A stretch of DNA of 40,828 bases from Selenomonadaceae bacterium (GTDB lineage: Bacteria; Bacillota; Negativicutes; Selenomonadales; Selenomonadaceae): positions 1-40,828 of the forward strand of contig JBAYAD010000001.1 in the NCBI GenBank assembly GCA_041669965.1, in the 5' to 3' direction. Each line of letters starts with the position of its first letter. The stretch's first letter is position 1. Made by a program: the position numbers and the translations under genes. The notes beneath the pieces were generated by a model. It saw only the letters and a list, made by a program, of their open reading frames with translations. It was not told the origin of the DNA and did not search any database. Positions 14,488 to 34,777 of the stretch are shown piece by piece.

Positions 14488-16380
14488 TTATTGTCCGGCG
14501 TTCTTTGCCATGCCTCTGTAATCACCGGCAACGGCGCCATAGTCCATGTAAATGTTCCATTGAACGCCCAACTGACCAGCCATCTGGAACATGTCGATAC
14601 TCGGAGCATTGATGCCTTTAAGAAAATCAACTTCAACGGTATCTACCAGTGCATTGTCAGCAGCCAGATAATATGCTTTTGCTCCGGCTACAGTCTTTGA
14701 GAGTTCCGCATCTACAATTACAGTCAGGCTATTCCTGTGGATGTTTGTTACCCCCGAATTTATTGCATTCAATGCAGCTGTGGATGTTACCAGTTGGAGT
14801 GCCAAATCTTCAAGTTCAGGTGGCACAATGAGATATTTTGCCGGTATGTTCAGTACGCTTTTCCCATCAACGCCGGTTTGTTTTCTCAGCAATGCCTTTA
14901 GCTCAGATATAGTGGTGTTACCGAGAGCACCAGCTGTACCCAAGTTTGCCTTGTCAGCGCTATACAGACTCGATGTTTGCAGAATACTGTACACAAGAGC
15001 ATTTATATCTCTGGCAGCTGCAGCTGCAATCGCCTGAGACATTCTTGAAAACTGACCAATATCATCATTGATGATCATTCTACGGTCAATGCTCAGTACC
15101 TCCCCATAGGTGTCCAACTGGCGATCAAACGGAGATCCTGTGCCATAGCTGCCTTCTTTGAGTTCTCCAGCTTTTCCAACCTTCTTAAGAGATCCAAATT
15201 CCCCTAATCTGTATGTGGAAGCTGGCTTGAAATCAGGGAGTTCTCCGATTCTGCACCACTGCAGATATGTAGGCTCTGCCATTGCGTAAAATCCGTTTAC
15301 AGTCTTATTTACTGCCGTGTCCATGATTGCAGGGAAAAATGATCCGCCTTGCATAAATGCTTTGACCAGAATATCTTCTCCGCTCACTCTTGCGGTGCTC
15401 TCACCGGTTAATGATACTGCTCGCTCAGCCAATCTTGAGATACTAAATCCCCGCAGTTCGTTTGCACCTTCTGCGGGCTTATCAATTCTCGTACCCATAC
15501 GCAATGCGATTGCGTCAGCTGCAGCTGCTCTGAATTTATCTCCTTCGTCCAAGGTCGTACCACTCCCTGCGGGAATGCCTTTCAACCTTTTTGAAAGCTC
15601 ATCCAAAGCAATTTTGCGGACCGCCTCCACTGTAGAGCCTTTTGTGATATGCTCCGAAAGGTCAATGTTGTATTGCCTCTGCATATCCATAATTGTGGTT
15701 ACGCGCTGCCGTTCTGCCTGTTCTGCTCTTGTAGCAGCTTCTGGATCTGTTTGTGTTGTGCTGCTTGCTACGCCTGTTTCATCAGCAGTTCTGTTCTCTT
15801 CGTCCATGTCAGGTTCCTCCTCCGAATAATATTTTGTATTTTCAGCTCGGCTAACACCTACTGTAGGATCAGCCGGCACACTGACTATAGATACTTCTAA
15901 AGGTGTCCATTTTCGTGCAATTATACACGGACCATCAAATCTGCCATCTGCAGATTTACTGCCCGCTTTCACTTCTTCTATGCTGTCATATTTATAACCG
16001 ACGGATACAGCTTTCAATGTCCCTGATTTTACTTTTTGATAAATCCGCTCCGCCTCATCATCTGTATCAAATTCAATGTCTACACATCCTCGGTTATTTT
16101 CAACCCACGCCCTTGTAATTTTACCAATAACAGTATTAACATCGTGATTGAATAAAACTACACCTATGGTGTTTAGCCTGGACAGATCTGCTGCATTTGG
16201 TGCATGATCCAGTATCTCCATTACTCCCCATCTGCTATACGGTGTCTCGGAAGAAAATGACAATGTAAACTTTCGTTCGTTACCTTCTCCTTCAACCATC
16301 CTTATAGCATCTATCTCCATGGCTCTAAACATCGTCTTCTTCATCGGTTTCGTCAGGTTTGTTGCTTGTTTTTTGCTCAC
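14488..16380 (-). CDS. Prohead protease (S78/HK97-type) - scaffold-like linker - major capsid protein fusion
   Basis: N-terminus has FSSETPYSRWGVMEILDH...VVLFNHDVNTVIGKI, which is protease-like. An acidic Glu/Asp/Ala-rich linker follows. The C-terminal roughly 330 aa are capsid-like. GTG start with SD GGAGG. Confidence 0.7.
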   Translation of the reverse strand: MSKKQATNLTKPMKKTMFRAMEIDAIRMVEGEGNERKFTLSFSSETPYSRWGVMEILDHAPNAADLSRLNTIGVVLFNHDVNTVIGKITRAWVENNRGCVDIEFDTDDEAERIYQKVKSGTLKAVSVGYKYDSIEEVKAGSKSADGRFDGPCIIARKWTPLEVSIVSVPADPTVGVSRAENTKYYSEEEPDMDEENRTADETGVASSTTQTDPEAATRAEQAERQRVTTIMDMQRQYNIDLSEHITKGSTVEAVRKIALDELSKRLKGIPAGSGTTLDEGDKFRAAAADAIALRMGTRIDKPAEGANELRGFSISRLAERAVSLTGESTARVSGEDILVKAFMQGGSFFPAIMDTAVNKTVNGFYAMAEPTYLQWCRIGELPDFKPASTYRLGEFGSLKKVGKAGELKEGSYGTGSPFDRQLDTYGEVLSIDRRMIINDDIGQFSRMSQAIAAAAARDINALVYSILQTSSLYSADKANLGTAGALGNTTISELKALLRKQTGVDGKSVLNIPAKYLIVPPELEDLALQLVTSTAALNAINSGVTNIHRNSLTVIVDAELSKTVAGAKAYYLAADNALVDTVEVDFLKGINAPSIDMFQMAGQLGVQWNIYMDYGAVAGDYRGMAKNAGQ

Positions 16381-19975: not shown

Positions 19976-20759
19976 TCCCTAGCTGTATCAGTTGGTTATC
20001 AATTACCTCTATCATGCTTGCTTCTATCCTCCTGATTTCACTGCTATCAATCAGACCGGTTAATTGGCTTGCGCATTTTCTCGGTACCGTTCGTATTACC
20101 GTCTTTATACCTGCAAACAGTGATGCAAGTTCTCTTATAACATCATCCCTGCGAAGCAGTTCTCCGTTCTGAATAGAATTCTTCATAGCTTGAAATTGCA
20201 TCTGATATTCTTTCAGCATTATTTCTGCTTCCATTTTTCGTGCGTACAGATTCTTTGCCTTTGCCTTTTCCTCTGTAGCATATGCTCCACCGCCTATAAG
20301 GCCACGCCACTTTAATACCTCTTCTATATCCCACCAGCCGGTTGCAACCTTCGGACATCCTTCTTTATTCCACATTGTTAATGTTTTATTCGTAATCTCT
20401 AAAAAATCAGCCAATCTACTTGACGAATAAAGCACCTTCCCTTCAATAAAACGAACTGACTTATCCGCTATTTTCATAACCGCCTCGTTCCTATCTATCT
20501 TTAATTGTTTTGATAGTTTAGAAATTATGTTGGATTGCTCATTAATGATTTTTTGATACGGATTTGTTACCGTTTTATCATCTCGTTTTCCTACCAGAGG
20601 ATACTTTAAGCATTCTTTTTTTGCCCTTTCATATGTAGCGACCGCCTCGCAATATGTATGTAAAACTGTCTGATCATATTTTTTTTTGCTATCAGATGTA
20701 ACCCTATCCCATTCTGCTTTCGCTTCGGGGCTTAGATTCTCATAAATGCTATTATCCAT
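19929..20759 (-). CDS. terS: Terminase small subunit: P27-like N-terminal half fused to a Nu1-like winged-HTH half
   Basis: aa 1-95 resemble Terminase_4/P27 (W..V...L..YCEAVATYERA...NPY). aa about 110-276 resemble Nu1 (LADFLEITNKTLTMWNKEGCP...WDIEEVLKWR). Overlaps both neighbouring genes. Confidence 0.7.
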   Translation of the reverse strand: MDNSIYENLSPEAKAEWDRVTSDSKKKYDQTVLHTYCEAVATYERAKKECLKYPLVGKRDDKTVTNPYQKIINEQSNIISKLSKQLKIDRNEAVMKIADKSVRFIEGKVLYSSSRLADFLEITNKTLTMWNKEGCPKVATGWWDIEEVLKWRGLIGGGAYATEEKAKAKNLYARKMEAEIMLKEYQMQFQAMKNSIQNGELLRRDDVIRELASLFAGIKTVIRTVPRKCASQLTGLIDSSEIRRIEASMIEVIDNQLIQLGNGEFIAEKAKAKKIK

Positions 20760-21954
20760 TAAGCAGCACCGCCGTACATCCAGAATGTTTCTCCCATCTT
20801 TTCACTATTACATTACAATACTTTGGATCAAGTTCCATTGTGTAGCAGCAACGCTCCATTTGTTCACATGCAATCAGAGTAGATCCTGATCCTCCAAACA
20901 AATCCATTATTATATCTTTCCGCATAGAACTGTTTTTCATCGGATATGCGATAAGAGGAATTGGCTTCATTGTGGGATGCTCGTCAGATCTATTCGGTTT
21001 ATCGAAATACCATACTGTTTTTTGCTTCCTATTACCGTGCCACTTATGCCCTGATCTTAAATCCCATCCGTATAAAACAGGTTCGAATTCGCCCTCTATT
21101 GATTCACCGCACATCACCGGCTCATGCTGCCATTGGTAATCCTGCCTACCCATTACCATGCTATTTTTTACCCATATGCATGTCTGCGCTAATTTAAATC
21201 CTGCATCACAAAACGCACCACGGAAGTTATATCCTTCGGAATCTGAGTGAAATATGTATGCAGCTGCTCCATAATTACAGAATGCACGCATATTTACAAA
21301 AGCATCAAACAGAAACTTTCTAAATGCATCACTTTTCATGTTATCATTTAGTATCGTTCCGGCCTTGCCTTGGACATTCACATTATACGGAGGATCCGTA
21401 ATAATTAGATTGGCTTTGCTCCCAGCCATAAGCATTTCCACATCATCATAAGAAGTGCTGTCTCTGCACATCAAACGGTGATCCCCAAGCTGCCAGATCA
21501 TGCCTTGTTTTATATGCGAAATATCTGCTTCTTTATATGCATTTTCAACATCGAAGTTATCTTCAAATGGCTCTATGTTTTTATCAAATCCAGATAGTCC
21601 AAATTGGCTCATATCGATTCCTATATCCGCCAATTCTATCTGCAATAATTCAATATCCCATTCGGCCAAATCTGCGGTGGAATTATCAGCAATCCGAAAG
21701 GCTTTTATTTGCTCTTCGGTCAGATCATCTGCAATGATACATGGAATTTCTATCATGCCCAGCTTTCGTGCTGCCTTGATTCTTGTATGTCCTGCAATCA
21801 CACCATTTTCACGGTCGATAATTACCGGCACCTTGAATCCAAATTCACGAATACTATTTGCAACCGCTTCTACGGCGATGTCATTCTTGCGCGGATTGCC
21901 TTTGTACTCGTTCAGGCTTCCCACGGGCATATTAACGATTTGCATTGAATTCAT
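20752..21954 (-). CDS. ParB-like nuclease domain fused to a DNA N6-adenine/N4-cytosine methyltransferase
   Basis: N-terminus has YKGNPRKND...GHTRIKAA, which is ParB/Srx-like. Motif IV is IITDPPYNVN and motif I is DLFGGSGSTLIACE, the beta-class order. Translationally overlaps terS. Confidence 0.85.
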   Translation of the reverse strand: MNSMQIVNMPVGSLNEYKGNPRKNDIAVEAVANSIREFGFKVPVIIDRENGVIAGHTRIKAARKLGMIEIPCIIADDLTEEQIKAFRIADNSTADLAEWDIELLQIELADIGIDMSQFGLSGFDKNIEPFEDNFDVENAYKEADISHIKQGMIWQLGDHRLMCRDSTSYDDVEMLMAGSKANLIITDPPYNVNVQGKAGTILNDNMKSDAFRKFLFDAFVNMRAFCNYGAAAYIFHSDSEGYNFRGAFCDAGFKLAQTCIWVKNSMVMGRQDYQWQHEPVMCGESIEGEFEPVLYGWDLRSGHKWHGNRKQKTVWYFDKPNRSDEHPTMKPIPLIAYPMKNSSMRKDIIMDLFGGSGSTLIACEQMERCCYTMELDPKYCNVIVKRWEKHSGCTAVLLNG

Positions 21955-22939: not shown

Positions 22940-22974
22940 GTTTATTCCGCCTCCGTTCTCTGCTTATTCTTTGG
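22940..22974. repeat. Direct repeat copy A (35 nt, 32/35 identical to 24038..24072)
   Basis: gtttattccgcctccgttctCtgctTAttctttgg. It covers the last codons (PKNKQRTEAE*) of the upstream gene plus the SD and spacer of the next gene. Confidence 0.8.
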
Positions 22975-23790
22975 TTTCAGAGATTCTGGATACTCTTGGA
23001 TAAATTCATCTCCCATAATCTCACGAAGGCTTTCCTTCATGAATACCGGAACTTCTGCGGCCTTAAAGCAGTCTACGAGTGTTTGTATCCATTTTCTCTT
23101 CGGAATCACTTTGTCTTTTCGGTTTCCGGTTTCTGCTCCAATAATAACCCATTGAATATGCCGTACATATTGATATGGTATTGGATCTATTTCTTTGAGT
23201 ATAGGTTCAATTGAAATAAATGTATTACTTTTACTATCTAAGTGATGGCAAGCAAGTATACTTGCATTTGTATATAACTCCGGATAATTTGTAGCAGATG
23301 CGCCAAACCATAATGACTTATAACTTTGAAATGAATATTTGATTATTCTCATATACCGATGCGGATTCTTTGTTAGAAATAAATAGTTATGTTGCTTTGT
23401 TCCTTTGCACCGTGCTATAATTTCATCGATCCACTCATCAGGTACCCATTCTCCGAACAAATCCGCCATGCTACAAACGAATATATTCTTTCCTTGCTTG
23501 TTCGCATAATCATCCAGCCTATAACGGTGGAAGGTAGGATCAAAATAATATGGATATGGTGCTTTTTGACCTCTGTCAACATCATAAATAGGTTCTATTA
23601 AATCATGTACCTTGCCTGTTTCTTCTGTTTCCCATTGGCATTGCGAACCTACGGTTTCATTATGATGTGTTTCGCTCGCACCTCCGAATCTGGCAGCTAT
23701 TTTCCGAGCATAGCAGTATTCGCATCCGTGTAGACAGCCGGTAACAGGGTTCCATGTGCTATCGCACCAATCTATCTTCGTTTTATTCAT
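22942..23790 (-). CDS. Phage Gp37/Gp68 (DUF5131) family protein with a CxxxCxxC motif
   Basis: MNKTKIDWCDSTWNPVTGCLHGCEYCYARKIA is the characteristic N-terminus of this family. Confidence 0.8.
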   Translation of the reverse strand: MNKTKIDWCDSTWNPVTGCLHGCEYCYARKIAARFGGASETHHNETVGSQCQWETEETGKVHDLIEPIYDVDRGQKAPYPYYFDPTFHRYRLDDYANKQGKNIFVCSMADLFGEWVPDEWIDEIIARCKGTKQHNYLFLTKNPHRYMRIIKYSFQSYKSLWFGASATNYPELYTNASILACHHLDSKSNTFISIEPILKEIDPIPYQYVRHIQWVIIGAETGNRKDKVIPKRKWIQTLVDCFKAAEVPVFMKESLREIMGDEFIQEYPESLKPKNKQRTEAE

Positions 23791-24037: not shown

Positions 24038-24072
24038 GTTTATTCCGCCTCCGTTCTTTGCTCGTTCTTTGG
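24038..24072. repeat. Direct repeat copy B (35 nt)
   Basis: gtttattccgcctccgttctTtgctCGttctttgg. It encodes PKNEQRTEAE* plus the SD. A 15-nt partial third copy lies at 23792..23806. Confidence 0.8.
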
Positions 24073-24699
24073 ATCCGTCCAGCAGCTTCCATCTTCCGTT
24101 CTGTGCGGGCAATGCTCGTTTTCAGAGTAATCTCCGCAAATGCTATTCTCTCCTGCTTTTGCACAGTCACAGCATAGACCATTTACGCATAATGCATCCT
24201 CACTTAATTCATTCTTTGCGTGTTCAGTGTTATATCTGCAGGTATCTGTTTCAGTGCAATAATCACAATAACCACTATCCACGCCCTTTATATTTTCGTT
24301 ATGCAGGCATTCGTCACACAGCATAAGTCGATTACCGCACACAGGACAATATGCTTTATATCCATATAGGTCAACATCCCACGCCATTTCTATTTCGTTG
24401 TCACAATGTGGGCACATTTCTACGACATTTACTATATCATCCCTCTGCTTCCGAAGCTGTGCGTTCTCGGCTTGGAGTTGTTTTAGCCTTGACAATTTTA
24501 CTTTAATCTCTCTCATCTCTACAATCAATGCGAGTATATTTTTGTATTGTGAAAAATCATCAATGTACGCCTGAATTTCATCACTCGTGAAATCAGCCTC
24601 TGTGGTTCGCAACATATGGCTGTTTTTTAATTTACATTGTTGTTTTATAATAAATGCCTTAATCTCTTCCAGATGTTTTTCTGTCATTTGTTTTCTCAT
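24040..24699 (-). CDS. Coiled-coil plus cysteine-rich protein, unknown function
   Basis: 219 aa. N-terminal heptad-like region, then many CxxC pairs (CPHCDNE...CPVCGNRLMLCDEC...CDYC...CCDC). Confidence 0.5.
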   Translation of the reverse strand: MRKQMTEKHLEEIKAFIIKQQCKLKNSHMLRTTEADFTSDEIQAYIDDFSQYKNILALIVEMREIKVKLSRLKQLQAENAQLRKQRDDIVNVVEMCPHCDNEIEMAWDVDLYGYKAYCPVCGNRLMLCDECLHNENIKGVDSGYCDYCTETDTCRYNTEHAKNELSEDALCVNGLCCDCAKAGENSICGDYSENEHCPHRTEDGSCWTDPKNEQRTEAE

Positions 24700-25292
24700 T
24701 TGCTTTCACGCTCCGTTCTTTCAAATTCAATCACCCATACCCACGGGTTAAAACAAAAGCGGTAGGGAGAAAGCGGCCCTGTCTGCTTCTCCTTTAAAGT
24801 ACTGTTCCACAACATTTCAAAACAGGCGATATGGTAATAGGCTATATCGCCCCCCATCACTTCAATATACTTGTCACCGTCTTTTGTACCTTCTGCCACT
24901 ACATCGGCTTCTGTAATTTCCTTCAATTTTTCTACTCTTACAGCGGTCACCTTTAAGAAGATTCGTGCAGCTTCTTTGGGCATATGGATTGATGGGCGCC
25001 AATTACCATCATAATCAGTATCATCTGCCTTATAGAAAATATCGCACATAGTGGTTGCAAAGGTTTCCCTTACATATAGAACATCACCGACTTTATGTGG
25101 TAATTTATAAATCTTTTCACCGTATCCATTAATAAAATTACCTCTGGCGCTGATTGAACCTTTAAGAGTAAAGAAAGTATAGCCAAATTCTGCGTCATCA
25201 GGCACATACTCCTTTAAAACTCTCCTGGTCACCGTCTTTCTTCCATCTAAAATTGCCTTTACCATTTCGGTATTAAATAATATCGGTTTCAT
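24696..25292 (-). CDS. ASCH/PUA-like domain protein
   Basis: MKPILFNTEMVKAILDGRKTVTRRV...GDVLYVRETF...WRPSIHMPKEAARIFLKVTAVRVEKL is the pattern of phage ASCH-like proteins. Confidence 0.6.
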   Translation of the reverse strand: MKPILFNTEMVKAILDGRKTVTRRVLKEYVPDDAEFGYTFFTLKGSISARGNFINGYGEKIYKLPHKVGDVLYVRETFATTMCDIFYKADDTDYDGNWRPSIHMPKEAARIFLKVTAVRVEKLKEITEADVVAEGTKDGDKYIEVMGGDIAYYHIACFEMLWNSTLKEKQTGPLSPYRFCFNPWVWVIEFERTERESK

Positions 25293-25332: not shown

Positions 25333-25794
25333 TTATCCTTCCAGCATCGGAAGCAGTGACGGCATTGTTCCTGTGAGATATGCATCCTTTATCTGCGGCC
25401 CCATGAAATCGCTTACGGTTTGATTGTTCGGCAGGAGTATGTTTGCCATGAATTCATCGTCAAATACCGATATTCCGCATTCTACCGCCTCCAGCTTTGC
25501 CTTGATTACCAGATGCAGCGCTCTCCATCTCTGCCGGCATGCTTGCTCCCAGGCTTCTCTTTGGCTGTTTGCCGTACGTTCTTGTCTTCCGCTCGGTGTG
25601 TATTTATAATCGCTTATAGGTGGCAAAGGGAGAAGGAACTTAATCTGTCGATCGTACATTTTAAAGGCGATCATTGCTTTTCCCTCTGATGATGCATACA
25701 TGAAACTGCTTGCCCCGTATTTTATAAGTGTCCGCTCGATCTCCAGCCTTGAAAGTTCACTTGATACCGTTGTGTTCTCTGCATATTTAGGCAT
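25333..25794 (-). CDS. Conserved phage hypothetical protein
   Basis: 153-aa ORF in operon context. No motif recognised with certainty. Confidence 0.5.
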   Translation of the reverse strand: MPKYAENTTVSSELSRLEIERTLIKYGASSFMYASSEGKAMIAFKMYDRQIKFLLPLPPISDYKYTPSGRQERTANSQREAWEQACRQRWRALHLVIKAKLEAVECGISVFDDEFMANILLPNNQTVSDFMGPQIKDAYLTGTMPSLLPMLEG

Positions 25795-27649
25795 ATATGT
25801 GACCTCCCTTATTTTCTTTTTGATTATCCACCCATATAATCTGATCTGATGTTCCCCAGTGCCATCCGTCTACCAAACACGGGATGATGGTTTCAAGTAA
25901 TACTGTTCCCATGGCTAGAGCTGCTGGAGGCGGTACTGCGTTCCCGATATGCTCTCTCCACCTGGCATCACTTTTACCGGATAGGCACAACGGAGATCCG
26001 TCTGCATAGGTACTTGGAAATCCTTGCAGCATAGCCAGCTCAAATGTGGTCAACGGTCTATGCCATGTGCCGTCCTCTGCAATAATGATCCAGATACCGT
26101 TTTCATTCTCTTCCGGTGTTCTTGGATCAGCCACCAATGTGCTGCCAGCCCCGTGTATATTTCCTTTTCCGGTTACGGTACCGTTCGGCTTGTCCCACTC
26201 CTGGATGAATGTTACCTGTGAACGGTTCCATGTACCTTTTTGATCTTCTGAAATACGTGGATCTGCAATAGCAGCTGCGCCTTGTGTATGTATATCTCCG
26301 TTTGCCGTAATTGTATTACTTGGCTTGTTATAATCCATCACAAGGCATTTACCCGCATTATATGTATTACGCTTATCTGCGACTAAAAGAGCTCCGCTGC
26401 CTATCCTTGCGCCTATTACAGTGTTTGCAGGCTGGTCATATTCGTTCACTTGATAATTGTTTCCGAACTTTCCCGCTTTTCCGTATCTTACATCACAGAT
26501 GATACCTGCTCCTTGGAATACCCCTGTGCCGCCTGTAACGGTATTGGCGGTCTTATCAAATGGCTGTACTTGGATACGGTTTGCGTGAAAGCGTTTGTCT
26601 GCCAGCACGATACCTCCATTATGGGCATTAATATCCTTGGCTCCTGTGACCGTTCTGGATGGATCCTCATAATCAGATACGGAAAGCTGCCCTGCTCTAC
26701 TGTCTGCTACAGCTTGGCACCCTTGCCCTTTCATATTGAATCCTGATCTTCCTGTAACGGTGATTGCTGTGCTGTCAAACTCTTGTACCTTGCATGTTTG
26801 GCTCATAGCTTTTTCGCCCAATGCCCGAATATCTTTGCCTGCAGGTATCATGGCCAGTTTCACCCATGTCTTATAAGCGAGGTTTGGCATCCTGTGCATA
26901 GGACCGCATGCTTCTGTATCCCCTGGCATTGGTATGGGACCTATAATATCCCCAATGGTCTTATGCTTGTACTTCTTTGGCTGGTAGATGAATGCAGGTA
27001 TCTTTTGAGGATTGCGGGCTATAAGCAGGAAACGCTTTCTATACTGCCCCAGCTGCCCGATCTCTCCGCAATCGTGATCCGCCTCATTGATTTCGTATCC
27101 GTATGCTTTGAGTATACTTTCTATCTCATCCACCAGCTTTCTACCCCGTGTTTTAATACGGGGTACATTCTCAAACAGAATGAATGCTGGTAGATCATCC
27201 ATAAACGCTTCACACAGTAGCTTTATTGATCTGATAGTAAGTCTGTTCAATGCCTGATACTTTGGTGTCTTTGCACTCTTTTCAGGAAGCAATCCGGAGA
27301 AGCCTTTACATGGTGCTGACATGAATGCTCCATATGGAGCTATGCCCTTGCACGCTGCCCTTATATCTTCCGGTGTGATTTCATGCCAATCTGCTGTTGG
27401 TTCGTGTCCCCAGAAGTCTATGTACTGCTTACGGTCAAACAGATCCATCTGTGCCGCCGGTACGCCCGTAAGCTTCTCAAAGTCCTTGCAGCAATACGGA
27501 TCACAATCTATACCCAGCAGAGTGGTGAAGCGACCTTTCACGCCCTTATACTCTGTGGTGCTGTTCTGCATTCCGTATGCCCCACCTCCGCTTCCGCAGA
27601 AGAAATGTATTACCGGTAGTTCGTATTCTTTATTCATGATATCCTCCAT
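25787..27649 (-). CDS. DNA (cytosine-5)-methyltransferase with six tandem TRD-like repeats
   Basis: Motif I FFCGSGGG, IV SAPCKGFS, VI FENVPR, VIII QYRKRFLLIA, IX LTTFELAMLQGFP, X GNAVPPP. The likely true start is the ATG at 27637, behind GGAGGA. Confidence 0.9.
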   Translation of the reverse strand: MEDIMNKEYELPVIHFFCGSGGGAYGMQNSTTEYKGVKGRFTTLLGIDCDPYCCKDFEKLTGVPAAQMDLFDRKQYIDFWGHEPTADWHEITPEDIRAACKGIAPYGAFMSAPCKGFSGLLPEKSAKTPKYQALNRLTIRSIKLLCEAFMDDLPAFILFENVPRIKTRGRKLVDEIESILKAYGYEINEADHDCGEIGQLGQYRKRFLLIARNPQKIPAFIYQPKKYKHKTIGDIIGPIPMPGDTEACGPMHRMPNLAYKTWVKLAMIPAGKDIRALGEKAMSQTCKVQEFDSTAITVTGRSGFNMKGQGCQAVADSRAGQLSVSDYEDPSRTVTGAKDINAHNGGIVLADKRFHANRIQVQPFDKTANTVTGGTGVFQGAGIICDVRYGKAGKFGNNYQVNEYDQPANTVIGARIGSGALLVADKRNTYNAGKCLVMDYNKPSNTITANGDIHTQGAAAIADPRISEDQKGTWNRSQVTFIQEWDKPNGTVTGKGNIHGAGSTLVADPRTPEENENGIWIIIAEDGTWHRPLTTFELAMLQGFPSTYADGSPLCLSGKSDARWREHIGNAVPPPAALAMGTVLLETIIPCLVDGWHWGTSDQIIWVDNQKENKGGHIYA

Positions 27650-28500
27650 TATGTATTAAAGTTTTTAAAGCTCGTTCCCTTTTCGCAATGTGTCACCGTT
27701 GCTGCCGGTCTTGACCACATCCGATGGAACTTTTTCCAATCGTCACTGTAATCCTGTTTTATATCTGCTCCGATCGGCTGATATAGTTGTGCAAATGGCA
27801 TAGCACCTGCATGGTATATTTCTTGTAAACGTGCTTCGTTTTTATCCATATCATCACCGATCAGCGCATAGCAGTAGATTTTATTACGGTCGAATCCTGC
27901 CTTTTTCAGCTTTTCTGTAGCTTTTTTCAGCCTTTGAATGGCTCCGTCTGTATCACAAGCTATCCATAGCTCAGGAAGGTATTTTAGGCTTGTACATCCG
28001 TTTATAAAGCGATCGTCTATTAAATCCGTTTCTAATCCGCCTTTGAATACAACATGCTTTTGAGACTTAAGCATTTCAAAAACTTTATCTTTGTGTGTCT
28101 TGTTTGCCTGCAAAAAGTTGTTGTCTTGAATTATGTTTCCTGAGCATATAGGTAGCTCCCGCAGTCTTCCTTCAAGTTTCGGTACAATGCACCATGGGCA
28201 ATTATTATTGCATCCTCTGCTTGTAAAGATAATATTAGGCTTTATATACATGCCTTGTTTGAACTCATTTACTTCGCTTCCAAAAGCTGGCCCGCCTAAC
28301 TTCACTTGTTTTTTTGTTTTGCCCTCCCATTGGTAAGCTAAATCTTCACAATACTTCTTGTCCCAAGAGAAAACACCACACACATGTACTTCATCGTGTT
28401 CTGGTATAAACATTTCATGCGGAGGAAGTCCAACAAACGCATACGGATCACTCGGTGTAAAACTGGTTCGCTGAGGGAATACTCTTATAACTCCGTTCAT
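27649..28500 (-). CDS. Radical-SAM-like protein (CxxxCxxC)
   Basis: FTSRGCNNNCPWCIVPK carries the CX3CX2C cluster motif. Its stop overlaps the methyltransferase ORF start (TAATG). Confidence 0.65.
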   Translation of the reverse strand: MNGVIRVFPQRTSFTPSDPYAFVGLPPHEMFIPEHDEVHVCGVFSWDKKYCEDLAYQWEGKTKKQVKLGGPAFGSEVNEFKQGMYIKPNIIFTSRGCNNNCPWCIVPKLEGRLRELPICSGNIIQDNNFLQANKTHKDKVFEMLKSQKHVVFKGGLETDLIDDRFINGCTSLKYLPELWIACDTDGAIQRLKKATEKLKKAGFDRNKIYCYALIGDDMDKNEARLQEIYHAGAMPFAQLYQPIGADIKQDYSDDWKKFHRMWSRPAATVTHCEKGTSFKNFNT

Positions 28501-30018: not shown

Positions 30019-30461
30019 TACTCCGCCTCCAGTGCTCGTATGTAATAATTTTTGATGTATTCTACCGTATCCCATATTGCATTTCTTCCGGTAAATTTTT
30101 TATCCACGCATTCTAAAATCCACGGATGCACCGATGAAAAGTTCCCATCTGTCCGGTATGCAATGATCGGTATCCCTTTTTTATATGCTTCGAATACCTC
30201 TATGGCAGTTCCTATGCTGTCCGGATAATCAAGGTTTAGTAGGATTATGTCGCTGTGTTGTACTGCCCAAATATCAAATCTCATGATCTCCTTTTCCGTG
30301 TAACTGGATATTGACATATCAAAATTATAAAAGTCACATGGGCTTATGGCTTTTGCCCCTATTTGTTCAAGTGCTACTTTTGCATATTCCCTCCATGCTG
30401 TCATTTGCTCTTTTGTAAGTCCGCTCATTTTCCCTGCAAGATATACTGTTGTTTTTTTCAT
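30018..30461 (-). CDS. Nucleoside 2-deoxyribosyltransferase-like (DUF4406-type) protein
   Basis: VYLAGKMSGLTKEQ...GTAIEVFEAYKKGIPII matches the YxAGxM and catalytic Glu pattern of the family. Confidence 0.6.
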   Translation of the reverse strand: MKKTTVYLAGKMSGLTKEQMTAWREYAKVALEQIGAKAISPCDFYNFDMSISSYTEKEIMRFDIWAVQHSDIILLNLDYPDSIGTAIEVFEAYKKGIPIIAYRTDGNFSSVHPWILECVDKKFTGRNAIWDTVEYIKNYYIRALEAE

Positions 30462-31390
30462 ACTATTTCCTCCATAAAATCAAATAATGTTGGCATATCC
30501 AGTTTGGATTCCTCGGCTTTGCAATATCCTACGCCATCACGGAAGTAATCTGCATTTAGTTCTATTCCGCAGCCAAAACGGCCGGACTTAATTGCCATCA
30601 TGGGAACGGTGAAAAGACCTGCGAAAGGATCAAGCACAACATCACCTGGATTGCTATACCGGTTGATGATCCGCTCCACAATATCAATCTGCAAAGGGCA
30701 TACGTGCATCTGCTGCCTTCGCTGGCTTTGTGTGGTGTTCAGTGTGCGCATCCGGTTTATATCGTCCCATACTTCATCCGTCCAGCTGCCTGGTGCTACT
30801 ACCATAAATGATGCAGGGAGCTTTCCGTCTGCATCCAGTTTCTTTGCCAATGCAACATGCTCCTCATAGCTATAAACCGCTTCTTTCGAGTATTTACGAT
30901 AGGCAGCCTGCAGCTTGTTCACCGGTATGGACAGCAGCTCTTCCTTTGTCAGAATCCTATTTCCGGATGATCTCCAATACCCATGCGCATCTATCTGCCA
31001 TTGCGCCCGTGTGTACTGCTCCTTTGTCTTGCGTACCGGTTCATCCGCATAAGCCTTTCCTGTATCGCTGGGCAGTTTGCGGAACAGGAGAATGTACTCT
31101 GGGCACCCTACTCCCATCTTTGATCCGTCTTTGCACTGCTCGCTCCATCCAAGCCTATAGGTCTGATTGTTTTCACGAACCACATCTGTCACGATTGTAA
31201 TCATTCCGAAATACTGAAAGCCATGATCCATATAGTGTTTGATGCAGATAGAGTGAAACGGTTCCATGGTCGGCATCCCTGTGCCGGTAGCATTACCGAA
31301 AAGCACTCTGTCTTTTACATGGCACGCATATACCCGCCCTGGCTTTAAGATACGGAGCAGCTGCGGTGTTAGATAATCCATCTGTTCCAT
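30458..31390 (-). CDS. DNA methyltransferase (N6_N4 type) C-terminal portion; the frame stays open upstream to 31507 and includes the motif-IV-like DFPF
   Basis: Has LLRILKPGRVYACHV and motif I VVLDPFAGLFTVPMMA. The same frame upstream of the listed ATG reads SIGAPQLRKQNISDFPFSNHYEYTPSYNDFGHN. Confidence 0.6.
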   Translation of the reverse strand: MEQMDYLTPQLLRILKPGRVYACHVKDRVLFGNATGTGMPTMEPFHSICIKHYMDHGFQYFGMITIVTDVVRENNQTYRLGWSEQCKDGSKMGVGCPEYILLFRKLPSDTGKAYADEPVRKTKEQYTRAQWQIDAHGYWRSSGNRILTKEELLSIPVNKLQAAYRKYSKEAVYSYEEHVALAKKLDADGKLPASFMVVAPGSWTDEVWDDINRMRTLNTTQSQRRQQMHVCPLQIDIVERIINRYSNPGDVVLDPFAGLFTVPMMAIKSGRFGCGIELNADYFRDGVGYCKAEESKLDMPTLFDFMEEIV

Positions 31391-31935
31391 GAATCGCTGC
31401 GTATTTTGGTTATGTCCGAAATCGTTATAGCTGGGTGTGTATTCGTAATGGTTACTGAAAGGAAAGTCTGATATGTTTTGCTTCCGAAGCTGCGGAGCAC
31501 CGATGCTTCATCCAATGCCGTAGCAGTGAAATACGTTGGATCGATATCCCCATCCCGTACCCGCTCATAGTTAGTCATCAGGATATTGGCATCTGTAGCT
31601 TTTACCTCGGCCATGTTACGGACATACACCGGAGCAGTTATCCCCAGAAGCTCTACCGCATCCCTTGTAAACTCCTGCTTAACACCCAACGGAAGAACTA
31701 TAAGTGATTTCCCTCCCACATGATCTGTCACGATCCTGCAGTATTCCAGTTCCTGCGCTGTCTTACCCAAACCAAAGGCTTCAAATAGTGCCCGCCTTCC
31801 GCCTTTGACCGCCCATCTTACACCGTCACGCTGGTGTGGCTTCAATACCTGGTTGATTTCACTGTCAGACACATCAAAGCCTGTGTCCTTGGCGATCTCC
31901 ATTTTTGATTTTAAAAATTCTATGTATGGCTGCAT
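31369..31935 (-). CDS. SNF2/DEAD-like helicase N-lobe fragment (motifs I to II), out of frame with the downstream methyltransferase
   Basis: LKPHQRDGVRW...FGLGKTAQ (motif I), ILMTNYERV, LDEASVLRSFGSKTYQTF (motif II region). The last roughly 25 aa look like out-of-frame read-through. Confidence 0.55.
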   Translation of the reverse strand: MQPYIEFLKSKMEIAKDTGFDVSDSEINQVLKPHQRDGVRWAVKGGRRALFEAFGLGKTAQELEYCRIVTDHVGGKSLIVLPLGVKQEFTRDAVELLGITAPVYVRNMAEVKATDANILMTNYERVRDGDIDPTYFTATALDEASVLRSFGSKTYQTFLSVTITNTHPAITISDITKIRSDSWNRWII

Positions 31936-33479: not shown

Positions 33480-33680
33480 TCAATCCCACCTCCACGTTTC
33501 AATCAGTCCGATGTCTTGCATTTCTTGCAGCTCAGTAATAACTTCTTCGAACGTGGAATCTTCATGCGGAGTAAGATTTTCTTTGCTGTTTAATCGGTCT
33601 GCTTTGGCTTTCAAGAGCGTTTCAAACCTTTTAATTTGATCGCGCATTTTTTTTGCCTGATCGTATCCGCTACTCATCAC
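33480..33680 (-). CDS. Small coiled-coil hypothetical protein
   Basis: 66-aa ORF with an ATGA-type overlap to the upstream gene. Confidence 0.45.
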   Translation of the reverse strand: MMSSGYDQAKKMRDQIKRFETLLKAKADRLNSKENLTPHEDSTFEEVITELQEMQDIGLIETWRWD

Positions 33681-34777
33681 TGTGCCTCCTTCGCTGTTTC
33701 AATCTGCATTTCCATCTGTTTCTTCTGTGCCGCCCTAAGCGCCTTGTAATCGTTGTACTGCTGCCGGTATCTATAGCTGTCGCCGAACACGTTCCACGCC
33801 GCCTTTACTAAATTCGGCTCGTACGGTCGTATCTTTTCCAAATCATCTACTGCTCTCGCCGATATGGAGCATCCACAACAGCCTGTGCGTGTTAGACCAT
33901 ATACCTCATAGGCGTCCGAATATCGAATTCCGTAGTAGTTTTTGTACCATTGCTTGTCCGCGTCAGACACATAAAATAGGGGTCTAAGTCGGTACTTGCC
34001 ATCAGCTGCTTCGGAAAAGCACATTGACGTATTGTCTTGGCGCGGAACAGACCTCATGCCGCCCTCGTCCCGGCGCTCTCCAGTAATTATCATGTCAAAT
34101 GACTTTTGCACGCTGTGCGCCAAATGCTTTTTGCAATCAGTGCAACATTTGTTGCTGACCCTGAATGGGATCGGGTTTTCGGTGATAAAATCAAGCATAT
34201 ATTTTGATGATCCGATGACGAGCTGAATGTCCGGCCGTGGATCCCCGGCGGAATTGCACCCGCACAGAAAATTAATTGGCGATTCGCATTTTGGGTAGCG
34301 TTCACGAAGCTCTGCCCGTTTTGCCGTTTTATCCTCTGCGTTTGCGTATTCTGCTGCAATGGATAGCGGGATGTTTTTTGTTTGCACGCCCTCTAACCCA
34401 GCCGACATGATTTTTGATACAAACGGTATTCCGTGTTCTCGTGTTGATTGCACGATACCTTTTTTCGGGCGGTGCTCGGTGATTGTGACGCTATACAATT
34501 CCGCTATTTCGCGGACATGGCGTTTTATTGCGTCCATCTCGAGCCCGGTGTTAAAAAAGCAGTATTGGATGGGCGGAAGATTGAAGATTTTTCGCACCAT
34601 TTCGATCAGATGTAACATAATGTCGCTGTCACTTCCGCCAGAGTACGAGCAGATTGCATTCGGATGCTCAATCAACCGTCTCGCGATTATGCTTTTAATG
34701 GCTTCGAACTTATGCGGAGCATCGAAATCTGCATACTCTGGACGGTCTGTATATACTTTGCTTTTATATCCGCTCAT
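33677..34777 (-). CDS. PAPS reductase-like PP-loop ATP pyrophosphatase family protein
   Basis: PP-loop CSYSGGSDSDIMLH. C-terminal Cys cluster LTRTGCCGCS, as in phage PAPS-reductase-like proteins. Confidence 0.8.
   Translation of the reverse strand: MSGYKSKVYTDRPEYADFDAPHKFEAIKSIIARRLIEHPNAICSYSGGSDSDIMLHLIEMVRKIFNLPPIQYCFFNTGLEMDAIKRHVREIAELYSVTITEHRPKKGIVQSTREHGIPFVSKIMSAGLEGVQTKNIPLSIAAEYANAEDKTAKRAELRERYPKCESPINFLCGCNSAGDPRPDIQLVIGSSKYMLDFITENPIPFRVSNKCCTDCKKHLAHSVQKSFDMIITGERRDEGGMRSVPRQDNTSMCFSEAADGKYRLRPLFYVSDADKQWYKNYYGIRYSDAYEVYGLTRTGCCGCSISARAVDDLEKIRPYEPNLVKAAWNVFGDSYRYRQQYNDYKALRAAQKKQMEMQIETAKEAQ

What the first reader, a model, noticed from the sequence alone, without database searches (positions are those of the whole stretch)
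26120..26791. Six tandem TRD-like repeats inside a C5-cytosine methyltransferase (candidate highly multispecific enzyme)
Between motif VIII (QYRKRFLLIA) and motif IX (LTTFELAMLQGFP) the protein carries six consecutive repeats of about 36-45 aa. Their consensus is v.(E/D)(F/Y/W)D.P..T(V/I)TG....h..G....vAD.R. The T(V/I)T(G/A) cores are at aa 297, 333, 370, 410, 446 and 491.

Each repeat resembles the single 'WD.PS.TIT...R' target-recognition core of ordinary Dcm-type enzymes.

The multispecific methyltransferases of Bacillus phages (SPR, phi3T, rho11s) carry several TRDs in tandem, each for a different target. Six copies would be an extreme case and would protect against many restriction systems at once. 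Alternatively, the repeats form a novel DNA-tracking domain.
Basis: partly seen in the sequence, partly recalled or inferred. Interest (0 to 1): 0.65.

Follow-up and report, generated by a model that had tools for sequence, protein, structure and literature searches.

The report
Phage cytosine methylase with six recognition modules
A temperate phage encodes a DNA cytosine-5 methyltransferase whose DNA-reading region is an array of six different ~40-residue modules; it belongs to a large family, not found described in the papers searched, in which such modules (3 to 12 per protein) are gained, lost and reordered, which suggests (but does not prove) that one enzyme protects the phage against many restriction systems.

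Summary
ORF 25787-27649 (-) is an intact C5-cytosine methyltransferase. Between motifs VIII and IX it carries six ~40-aa units at exactly the stated positions. Each scores 20-41 bits against a unit model built without this protein; 2000 shuffles reach at most 7 bits.

Six units is not extreme. The unit array defines a large phage and prophage family with 3-12 units per protein; 5-6 is the commonest count.

Comparative evidence favours the multispecific reading but does not prove it:
- Units fall into discrete types with a shared framework (V..W.EP..TVTG...G...VADPR) and a type-specific loop.
- The unit aligns to M.HaeIII residues 228-242. Extended on a sequence recalled from memory, this puts R227 and R243 at unit positions 1 and 17.
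- Proteins rarely carry one type twice.
- Unit order differs between proteins.
- Of 94 protein pairs with at least 80% identical N-terminal domains, 86 differ in unit content.
- Units are about as conserved as the catalytic core.

The units are not detectably homologous to the recognition domains of the Bacillus SPbeta-group enzymes. AlphaFold2 could not model the array in two attempts. No methylation data exist for any member.

Verdict: a new variant of a known kind (tandem-TRD phage methyltransferase). Multispecificity is probable, about 0.6.

The parts
25787..27649 (-). Whole gene: 620-aa C5-cytosine DNA methyltransferase. The gene caller of the public collection starts at Met5, giving 616 aa (P0001).
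   Evidence: ORF; Pfam PF00145 at 65.7 bits; Foldseek top matches are C5 methyltransferases
27011..27649 (-). aa 1-213: catalytic domain, N-terminal part. Motif I FFCGSGGG 16-23, motif IV APCKGFS with catalytic Cys114, motif VI ENV 160-162, motif VIII QYRKR 202-206.
   Evidence: Sequence; alignment to DNMT1; AlphaFold2 pLDDT above 90
26795..27010 (-). aa 214-285: segment before the array, conserved across the family (GPMHR.P.L..KTWV+LA.IPAG.D.R.L). Read here as the shared scaffold of the small domain.
   Evidence: Invariant columns of alignment A1; pLDDT 74-92 up to about aa 270 and falling to 62 over aa 271-280
26690..26794 (-). Unit 1, aa 286-320 (CKVQEFDSTAITVTGRSGFNMKGQGCQAVADSRA); nearest family type 'I' (50%).
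   Evidence: (19.6 bits)
26585..26686 (-). Unit 2, aa 322-355 (LSVSDYEDPSRTVTGAKDINAHNGGIVLADKRFH); nearest type 'B' (53%).
   Evidence: (22.2 bits)
26477..26575 (-). Unit 3, aa 359-391 (IQVQPFDKTANTVTGGTGVFQGAGIICDVRYGK); nearest type 'T' (53%).
   Evidence: (28.3 bits)
26360..26455 (-). Unit 4, aa 399-430 (YQVNEYDQPANTVIGARIGSGALLVADKRNTY); nearest type 'J' (60%).
   Evidence: (34.2 bits)
26246..26347 (-). Unit 5, aa 435-468 (CLVMDYNKPSNTITANGDIHTQGAAAIADPRISE); type 'A'. This type is the last unit in 107 of 120 relatives but is next to last here.
   Evidence: (41.1 bits)
26111..26212 (-). Unit 6, aa 480-513 (TFIQEWDKPNGTVTGKGNIHGAGSTLVADPRTPE); type 'L'.
   Evidence: (37.0 bits)
25787..26110 (-). 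aa 514-620 plus stop: conserved segment after the array (NGIWIIIAEDGTWHRP), motif IX LTTFELAMLQGFP, motif X GNAVPPP, and C-terminal helix.
   Evidence: A3 consensus; pLDDT 82-97 from aa 511 on, with a dip to 65 over aa 521-530 and 74 over aa 591-600

Best explanation
The gene encodes an orphan, phage-borne C5-cytosine DNA methyltransferase. Its variable region is an array of six different mini recognition modules, each about 30 conserved residues plus a linker of about 10.

Proposed mechanism (inferred, not shown):
- The catalytic domain, the conserved segment before the array and the conserved hairpin after it form one fixed socket.
- The units share a framework (V..W.EP..TVTG...G..VADPR) that fits this socket, so one unit at a time docks while the others loop out on short polar linkers.
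- The docked unit's type-specific loop (positions 15-20, plus 3, 10 and 23-24) and its basic position 1 read the bases around the target cytosine.
- Each unit therefore adds one target sequence. During lytic growth the phage genome is methylated at up to six kinds of site and escapes several restriction systems at once.

Shown here: the enzyme class, the array, the discrete unit types, their reordering, their non-redundancy, their turnover and their conservation.

Inferred: that each unit is a working recognition domain, that units dock alternately, and which targets they read.
For: 1. All catalytic motifs are intact and the catalytic domain models at pLDDT above 90.

2. Units lie exactly where TRDs lie, between motifs VIII and IX. 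Unit positions 2-16 align to M.HaeIII 228-242, VRQWNEPAFTVQASG. In one search, 14 of the 15 type-specific models place their best hit at HaeIII 227/229-238/244; most score above all 1000 shuffles (up to 10.9 bits, shuffles at most 4.7), and four do not exceed the best shuffle. Extending that alignment on the HaeIII sequence recalled from memory puts R227 at unit position 1 and R243 at position 17. HaeIII S224, R225 and R227 contact the GGCC bases, and R243Q shifts preference from GGCC to GCGC (PMC3526282).

3. Across 703 units from 120 relatives, framework positions are nearly invariant (D27 in 695 of 703, P28 in 643, R29 in 662). Positions 15-20 are highly variable between types yet conserved within a type.

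4. A unit's best match in another protein is 80% identical; its best match in the same protein is 47%.

5. 105 architectures occur among 120 proteins, and 39 of 160 type pairs occur in both orders.

6. Internal units of the same type occur twice in 3-21 proteins, depending on the clustering threshold, against 26-56 expected. None of 1000 permutations goes as low. The six units of the window protein are nearest to six different types.

7. Of 94 protein pairs with N-terminal domains at least 80% identical, 86 differ in unit content, for example 98% identity with OJFUHLA against OJ..KA.

8. Matched units are as conserved as the catalytic core, 0.60 against 0.62.

9. Context is an orphan gene in a temperate phage. 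The window has integrase, terminase, portal and sheath genes and two further DNA methyltransferases, with no nuclease gene annotated beside the methyltransferase. Relatives sit in Pseudomonas phages phiCTX and Dobby and in a Brevibacillus prophage.

10. Precedent for the mechanism: Bacillus phage enzymes array several TRDs in one polypeptide (PMC12707154, PMC8936443). The prophage enzyme M.BceSV modifies 5-7 targets (PMC3459991, PMC3526280).
Against: - No member of this family has a measured methylation pattern in any source I could reach.
- The unit models do not detect the TRDs of SPR, phi3T, rho11s or H2, so function cannot be transferred by homology.
- The similarity to HaeIII covers only the first half of a unit and is not significant in a database-wide search (E=1.6).
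- AlphaFold2 gives the array pLDDT below 50 with no secondary structure, both for this protein and for a 3-unit relative. Nothing structural therefore shows that a unit can dock.
- Non-redundancy and discrete types could partly reflect descent from one ancestral array of already different units.
- A near-invariant DPR in every unit could equally point to a common structural role.
- In the window protein four of six units have lost the Pro of DPR, and none of the first five has Trp at position 5 (F, Y, F, Y, Y), so some units may be weakened.
Confidence: 0.6

Rival explanations
1. Only one unit works as the recognition domain: the one next to motif IX, or the widely conserved type A. The internal units would be silent or 'pseudo' domains, spacers, or a store of cassettes that recombination brings into the active position. 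The enzyme would then have one target, or few, at a time.
For: Type A is the last unit in 107 of 120 proteins. The first and last positions are stable while internal units turn over. From my own knowledge, inert pseudo-domains are reported in the SPbeta-group enzymes. AlphaFold2 docks no unit.
Against: Internal units are as conserved as the catalytic core, which is not expected of silent sequence. Each type keeps its own conserved loop. The window gene has no DNA-level repeats that would drive cassette recombination. In the window protein type A is not last.
Confidence: 0.2
2. The units act together as one extended, low-specificity DNA-binding or DNA-tracking domain. This would give processive or relaxed methylation (very short or degenerate targets) rather than a list of discrete targets. 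More units would mean more affinity, not more targets.
For: Every unit shares a near-invariant framework, including DPR. The unit count varies freely from 3 to 12. Non-specific phage or prophage methyltransferases exist for adenine, such as M.EcoGII (cited in PMC12707154).
Against: A generic affinity repeat should tolerate or favour identical copies. Instead, duplicated types are strongly avoided and types are discrete, with loops conserved within each type. No regular fold is predicted. The loop corresponds to a specificity-determining residue of HaeIII.
Confidence: 0.12
3. The array has a role unrelated to DNA sequence reading, for example a flexible spacer, a protein-interaction region or a packaging signal. 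In that case the target would be read by the conserved segments on either side of the array.
For: Low-confidence, structure-less AlphaFold2 prediction. Composition rich in Gly, Ala, Ser and Thr, and polar linkers.
Against: The array occupies the TRD position and aligns to the HaeIII TRD. Among the nine long or many-unit array proteins scanned against Pfam, every one is a C5 methyltransferase. The flanking segments are invariant across the family, so on their own they would give all members the same target. That makes the rapid turnover of units hard to explain.
Confidence: 0.05

Closest known systems
Multispecific C5 methyltransferases of the Bacillus subtilis SPbeta-group phages (M.SPRI, M.Phi3TI, M.Rho11sI, M.H2I, M.SPBetaI)
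   Same: These are phage-borne orphan C5 enzymes with several short recognition domains in tandem between motifs VIII and IX. The domains are about 40-50 aa (from my own knowledge of Trautner et al. 1996; that paper was not readable here). They share the motif 'aromatic...P..T(L/I/V)T'. As read from the fetched sequences and my recollection of the TRD map, the TRD next to motif IX (the GGCC one) is common to all four enzymes and the upstream ones vary, as with type A here.
   Different: No detectable homology of units to their TRDs. The catalytic cores are not close: no Bacillus phage appears among tblastn hits at E<=1e-5. Here there are 3-12 units instead of 2-4, a much more regular unit (period 37-44 aa with VADPR at the end), dozens of unit types, and a host range across Bacillota and Proteobacteria.
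M.BceSV (BCE_0393), orphan m5C methyltransferase of a Bacillus cereus ATCC 10987 prophage
   Same: A prophage-borne orphan m5C enzyme that protects against at least 12 restriction enzymes. [quoted passage not shown] It lies next to a ParB-methyltransferase (PMC3459991, PMC3526280). The window phage also carries a ParB-methyltransferase.
   Different: I could not obtain its sequence, so whether it carries these units is untested. Three of its targets coincide with SPbeta-group TRDs, and no Bacillus phage carries the present family. It may therefore belong to the SPbeta type.
M.BssHII of Bacillus stearothermophilus H3 (Schumann et al. 1996, cited in PMC4081073)
   Same: A multispecific C5 methyltransferase with five targets (from my own knowledge). 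It comes from a thermophilic member of the Bacillales, a group in which this family is common.
   Different: Neither the sequence nor the paper was available. The relation is untested.
M.HaeIII (monospecific, GGCC; PDB 1dct, 3ubt)
   Same: The catalytic fold is the same. Residues 228-242 align to unit positions 2-16. On the sequence recalled from memory, the specificity residues R227 and R243 fall at unit positions 1 and 17.
   Different: HaeIII has one such segment, not an array. Its 'LHP' stands where the units have 'VADPR'. The similarity is short and weak.

Membership tests
C5-cytosine DNA methyltransferase (Pfam PF00145) | Profile match above the curated cut-off | tested here: met
   65.7 bits against a cut-off of 22, E=6e-18, in two stretches flanking the array. 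TIGR00675 gives 42 bits, below its cut-off of 100.65.
C5-cytosine DNA methyltransferase (Pfam PF00145) | Ordered motifs I (FxGxG), IV (PC), VI (ENV), VIII (QxRxR), IX and X (GN.V) | tested here: met
   FFCGSGGG 16-23, PC 113-114, ENV 160-162, QYRKR 202-206, LTTFELAMLQGFP 533-545, GNAVPPP 569-575
C5-cytosine DNA methyltransferase (Pfam PF00145) | Fold of the catalytic domain | tested here: met
   AlphaFold2 pLDDT above 90. Foldseek matches MET1/ZMET2, DNMT1, prophage CP-933R methyltransferase 3g7u (rmsd 2.7), HaeIII and HhaI, E about 1e-11 to 3.5e-9 for the 50 matches listed.
C5-cytosine DNA methyltransferase (Pfam PF00145) | Methyl transfer to C5 of cytosine in DNA | not testable with these tools
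   Needs expression and a methylation assay
Unit-array C5 methyltransferases (the family delimited here) | At least 3 tandem units matching V..W.EP..TVTG...G..VADPR between motifs VIII and IX | tested here: met
   Six units of 19.6-41.1 bits against a model built without this protein. Relatives carry 3-12 units.
Unit-array C5 methyltransferases (the family delimited here) | Conserved segment before the array and conserved ...IIAEDGTWHRP hairpin after it | tested here: met
   Invariant columns of A1 and A3
SPbeta-group multispecific methyltransferases | Several TRDs in tandem in the variable region | tested here: met
   The architecture is analogous. That the units are TRDs is inferred.
SPbeta-group multispecific methyltransferases | Sequence homology of the TRDs to those of SPR, phi3T, rho11s or H2 | tested here: not met
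   The general unit HMM scores negative and the best type-specific HMM reaches only 1.3 bits on all four enzymes, within the range of shuffles
SPbeta-group multispecific methyltransferases | Close relation of the catalytic core (the group shares at least 58% identity) | tested here: not met
   tblastn of the window protein against 50,697 phage records finds no Bacillus phage at E<=1e-5. Identity within the group is seen.
SPbeta-group multispecific methyltransferases | Several targets, each lost on deletion of one TRD | not testable with these tools
   Needs methylome data and deletion constructs
Beta-solenoid or other rigid structural repeat domain | Regular stacked fold predicted with confidence | tested here: inconclusive
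   The array has pLDDT below 50 and no secondary structure in two AlphaFold2 runs: the 6-unit window protein and the 3-unit P0035. The alignments were shallow (65 and 50 sequences) and ambiguous within the array.
M.BceSV / M.BssHII type multispecific enzymes | Sequence relation to these enzymes | not tested
   Sequences and primary papers were not obtainable

The most novel reading that the evidence does not exclude
This family is a natural combinatorial system of plug-in recognition modules for one catalytic core. It would hold dozens of module types, each encoding one target, assembled in arrays of 3-12 and exchanged quickly between phages. The window enzyme would then methylate about six unrelated target sequences. 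The family would also give a readable 'module type to DNA target' code for C5 methyltransferases, and a test bed for how alternative domains take turns at one active site.
Probability: 0.45. Interest if true: 0.75.

Novelty: new variant of a known kind. Interest (0 to 1): 0.6.

Why it matters
If each unit is a working recognition domain, three things follow.

1. One phage gene would disarm many restriction systems. The window phage carries two more methyltransferases besides this one.

2. The family would be by far the largest natural set of interchangeable C5 recognition modules. It has 494 clusters at 50% identity, relatives in 272 stretches of species-representative genomes, and at least 24 recurrent unit types. 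Measuring the methylomes of a few dozen members would assign targets to unit types. Specificity, which is hard to predict for m5C enzymes, could then be read from sequence.

3. The family bears on an old open question left by the SPbeta enzymes: how several recognition domains share one catalytic domain. From my own knowledge, no structure of a multispecific enzyme exists.

If the units turn out not to be independent, the family is still a widespread, unannotated domain architecture that Pfam covers only with the generic PF00145 model.

Tried and rejected
- **AlphaFold2, two runs.** The window protein with 65 relatives and the 3-unit relative P0035 with 50 relatives both left the array unmodelled. 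This gives no structural evidence either way.
- **Unit profile against PDB sequences.** Nothing but noise. The type-A profile extended through motif IX hit only HaeIII, weakly.
- **hhalign of the unit profile against 18 monospecific C5 enzymes.** The enzymes were taken from loci L087-L166. No alignment was found.
- **Unit HMMs against SPR, phi3T, rho11s and H2.** The general and the type-specific models found no match. Homology to those TRDs is therefore rejected.
- **DNA-level repeats in the gene.** None.
- **Primary papers.** Trautner 1996, Lange 1996, Behrens 1987 and Xu 2012 are not held.
- **Sequence of BCE_0393 (M.BceSV).** A genome scan with the rho11s enzyme and a look at a B. cereus phage hit did not yield it.
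- **Literature searches for a description of this family.** Searches on phiCTX, tandem TRDs and multi-specific m5C phage enzymes found none.
- **Chance or low complexity as the source of the repeats.** Rejected by the shuffle test.
Full report
**1. The observation**

The finding lies in ORF 25787-27649 on the minus strand, 620 aa. The protein is a C5-cytosine DNA methyltransferase. Pfam PF00145 matches at 65.7 bits against a cut-off of 22, in two stretches that flank the repeats. All motifs are present in order:
- motif I, FFCGSGGG 16-23
- motif IV, APCKGFS with Cys114
- motif VI, ENV 160-162
- motif VIII, QYRKR 202-206
- motif IX, LTTFELAMLQGFP 533-545
- motif X, GNAVPPP 569-575

Window 26120-26791 corresponds to aa 287-510.

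The six units are 26-48% identical to each other. A unit HMM built only from other proteins finds six domains of 19.6-41.1 bits. The best score in 2000 shuffles of the protein is 7.0 bits. There is no DNA-level tandem repeat, so the units are old and diverged.

**2. A family, not a one-off**

The protein search gave 3636 relatives at E<=1e-5. The best 120 are 41-50% identical to the window protein and 498-773 aa long. The unit HMM counts 3-9 units in them, with a mode of 5-6. Protein length follows unit number with r=0.97. The unit period is 37-44 aa, and linkers are about 10 polar, Gly-rich residues.

A search of 1.84 billion cluster representatives with the unit profile found 494 clusters at E<=0.001 and arrays of up to 12 units. 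The nine long or many-unit proteins I scanned against Pfam are all C5 methyltransferases, and five of them carry an intein.

Members occur in these phages:
- Pseudomonas phages phiCTX, Dobby, LKA5 and H66
- Achromobacter phage CF418P1
- Marinobacter phage PS3
- Sinorhizobium phage PBC5

They also occur in 272 stretches of species-representative genomes. Among the 80 best loci listed, these span Bacillota (Brevibacillus, Paenibacillus, Cohnella, Desulfosporosinus, clostridia) and Proteobacteria. Six units is therefore ordinary within the family.

**3. Context**

The window is a temperate tailed phage. It has integrase, small and large terminase, portal, head protease/capsid, sheath and tape-measure genes. 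It carries two further DNA methyltransferases: a ParB-N6/N4 fusion at 20752-21954 and an N6/N4 enzyme at 30458-31390. No nuclease gene is annotated beside the C5 gene. In phage Dobby and in a Brevibacillus prophage the gene also sits in the early or replication region without a nuclease partner. The enzyme is an orphan, phage-borne methyltransferase.

**4. Anatomy of the unit**

Over 703 units the framework is V2, W5, P8, T11, V/I12, G14, G21, V/I25, A26, D27, P28, R29. D27 is present in 695 of 703 units.

At a clustering threshold of 0.5 the units form 55 clusters, 24 of them with four or more members. Positions 15-20, and to a lesser degree 3, 10, 23 and 24, carry most of the information that separates types. 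Within a type they are well conserved: total entropy is about 2-3.4 bits, within-type entropy 0.4-1.5 bits.

The only solved structure with any similarity is M.HaeIII. Its residues 227-324 align to the last unit plus motifs IX-X at E=8e-6 with the whole-family profile. VRQWNEPAFTVQASG (228-242) aligns to unit positions 2-16.

Fifteen type-specific HMMs were run against HaeIII. Fourteen place their best HaeIII hit at the same spot, at up to 10.9 bits; one reported no hit. The best of 1000 shuffles per type reaches 1.5-4.7 bits, and four types do not exceed their best shuffle. For this test I used a HaeIII sequence recalled from memory, and only residues 228-242 of it are checked.

Extending the alignment on that recalled sequence puts HaeIII R227 at unit position 1, which is usually R, K or Q, and R243 at position 17, inside the type-specific loop. 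In HaeIII, S224, R225 and R227 contact the GGCC bases, and R243Q shifts preference from GGCC to GCGC (PMC3526282). Each unit thus holds the counterparts of known specificity determinants. This link is short and weak, and I treat it as a lead supported by position, not as proof.

**5. Evolutionary pattern**

- A unit's closest relative is in another protein (mean 80% identity), not in its own protein (47%).
- Type A is the last unit in 107 of 120 proteins. The window protein is one of three exceptions, with order A then L.
- Internal units vary. There are 105 architectures in 120 proteins, and 39 of 160 type pairs occur in both orders, for example B-D 33 against 13 and H-L 13 against 7.
- The same internal type occurs twice in 3-21 proteins, depending on the threshold, against 26-56 expected. 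No permutation reaches the observed value.
- Of 94 pairs with N-terminal domains at least 80% identical, 86 differ in architecture. Examples are P0004 (OJFUHLA) against P0021 (OJ..KA) at 98%, and P0046 (EMBDA) against P0050 (EMCBDA) at 95%.
- Matched units are as conserved as the catalytic core, 0.60 against 0.62.
- The six window units are nearest to six different types: I, B, T, J, A and L.

Together these results describe discrete, selected, non-redundant modules that are exchanged quickly. That is what independent recognition domains under pressure from changing restriction systems would produce.

One caveat applies. Descent from an ancestral array of already different units also lowers redundancy, and the permutation test ignores relatedness.

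**6. Structure**

AlphaFold2 models the catalytic domain well but gives the array pLDDT below 50 with no secondary structure. This holds both for the window protein and for the 3-unit relative P0035. Foldseek matches concern the catalytic domain only. There is therefore no support for a rigid solenoid, and none for docking either. The alignments were shallow and ambiguous within the array.

**7. Comparison with the known**

*SPbeta-group enzymes.* Tandem recognition domains in one phage C5 methyltransferase are known from the Bacillus SPbeta-group enzymes (PMC12707154, PMC8936443). I fetched SPR, rho11s, H2 and phi3T. Their domains share the loose pattern 'aromatic...P..T(L/I/V)T', but the unit HMMs do not detect them. 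The catalytic cores are not close either. The window enzyme works like them in architecture but is not a member of their family.

*M.BceSV.* A prophage enzyme with 5-7 targets, M.BceSV, has been characterised (PMC3459991, PMC3526280). High multispecificity is therefore not without precedent. I could not obtain its sequence, or that of M.BssHII, to test a relation.

*Literature on this family.* Six literature searches found no description of this unit-array family. The searchable library is limited and REBASE could not be consulted.

**8. Verdict**

Six units is typical for the family, not extreme.

Main rivals:
- only one or a few units are active (0.2)
- the units bind DNA collectively with low specificity (0.12)
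- the array has a role unrelated to DNA reading (0.05)

Novelty: a new variant of a known kind. Interest: 0.6.

Noticed in passing
window 20752-21954 (-) and 30458-31390 (-), with 31369-31935 (-): The phage carries two further DNA methyltransferases. One is a ParB_N + N6_N4 fusion. The other is an N6_N4 enzyme whose upstream, overlapping ORF (31369-31935) hits the same large PHROG helicase/methyltransferase families, so the gene may be split or frameshifted. The pairing of a ParB-methyltransferase with a C5 enzyme recalls BCE_0392/BCE_0393 of B. cereus ATCC 10987.
   Followed up: partly
window 27649-28500 (-): A 283-aa radical-SAM-like ORF lies directly upstream of the C5 gene, with its stop overlapping the methyltransferase start codon. 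It matches phrog_9298 at E=3e-22; Pfam Radical_SAM gives only 23 bits, below its cut-off. The overlap suggests co-translation with the methyltransferase. Its function is unknown.
   Followed up: partly
window 33677-34777 (-); L005 5384-6616 (Pseudomonas phage Dobby gp46): A PAPS-reductase-like gene occurs in the window phage. In phage Dobby such a gene lies directly downstream of the homologous C5 methyltransferase. The association recurs in distant phages and is unexplained.
   Followed up: no
P0136, P0159, P0253, P0194, P0210 (relatives, not in the window): Several family members of about 930-1200 aa carry intein-type domains in the N-terminal part, upstream of the PF00145 match. All five have a LAGLIDADG domain, and four of them also have a Hint domain.
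   Followed up: partly
window 22942-23790 (-), 24040-24699 (-), 24696-25292 (-), 25333-25794 (-): A run of conserved phage genes of unknown function lies downstream of the methyltransferase: DUF5131, a Cys-rich 219-aa protein, phrog_874 and phrog_17260.
   Followed up: no
window 14488-16380 (-): A single 630-aa ORF matches both the head maturation protease and the major head protein (phrog_4523, 'major head and protease protein'). It appears to be a fused protease-capsid gene.
   Followed up: no
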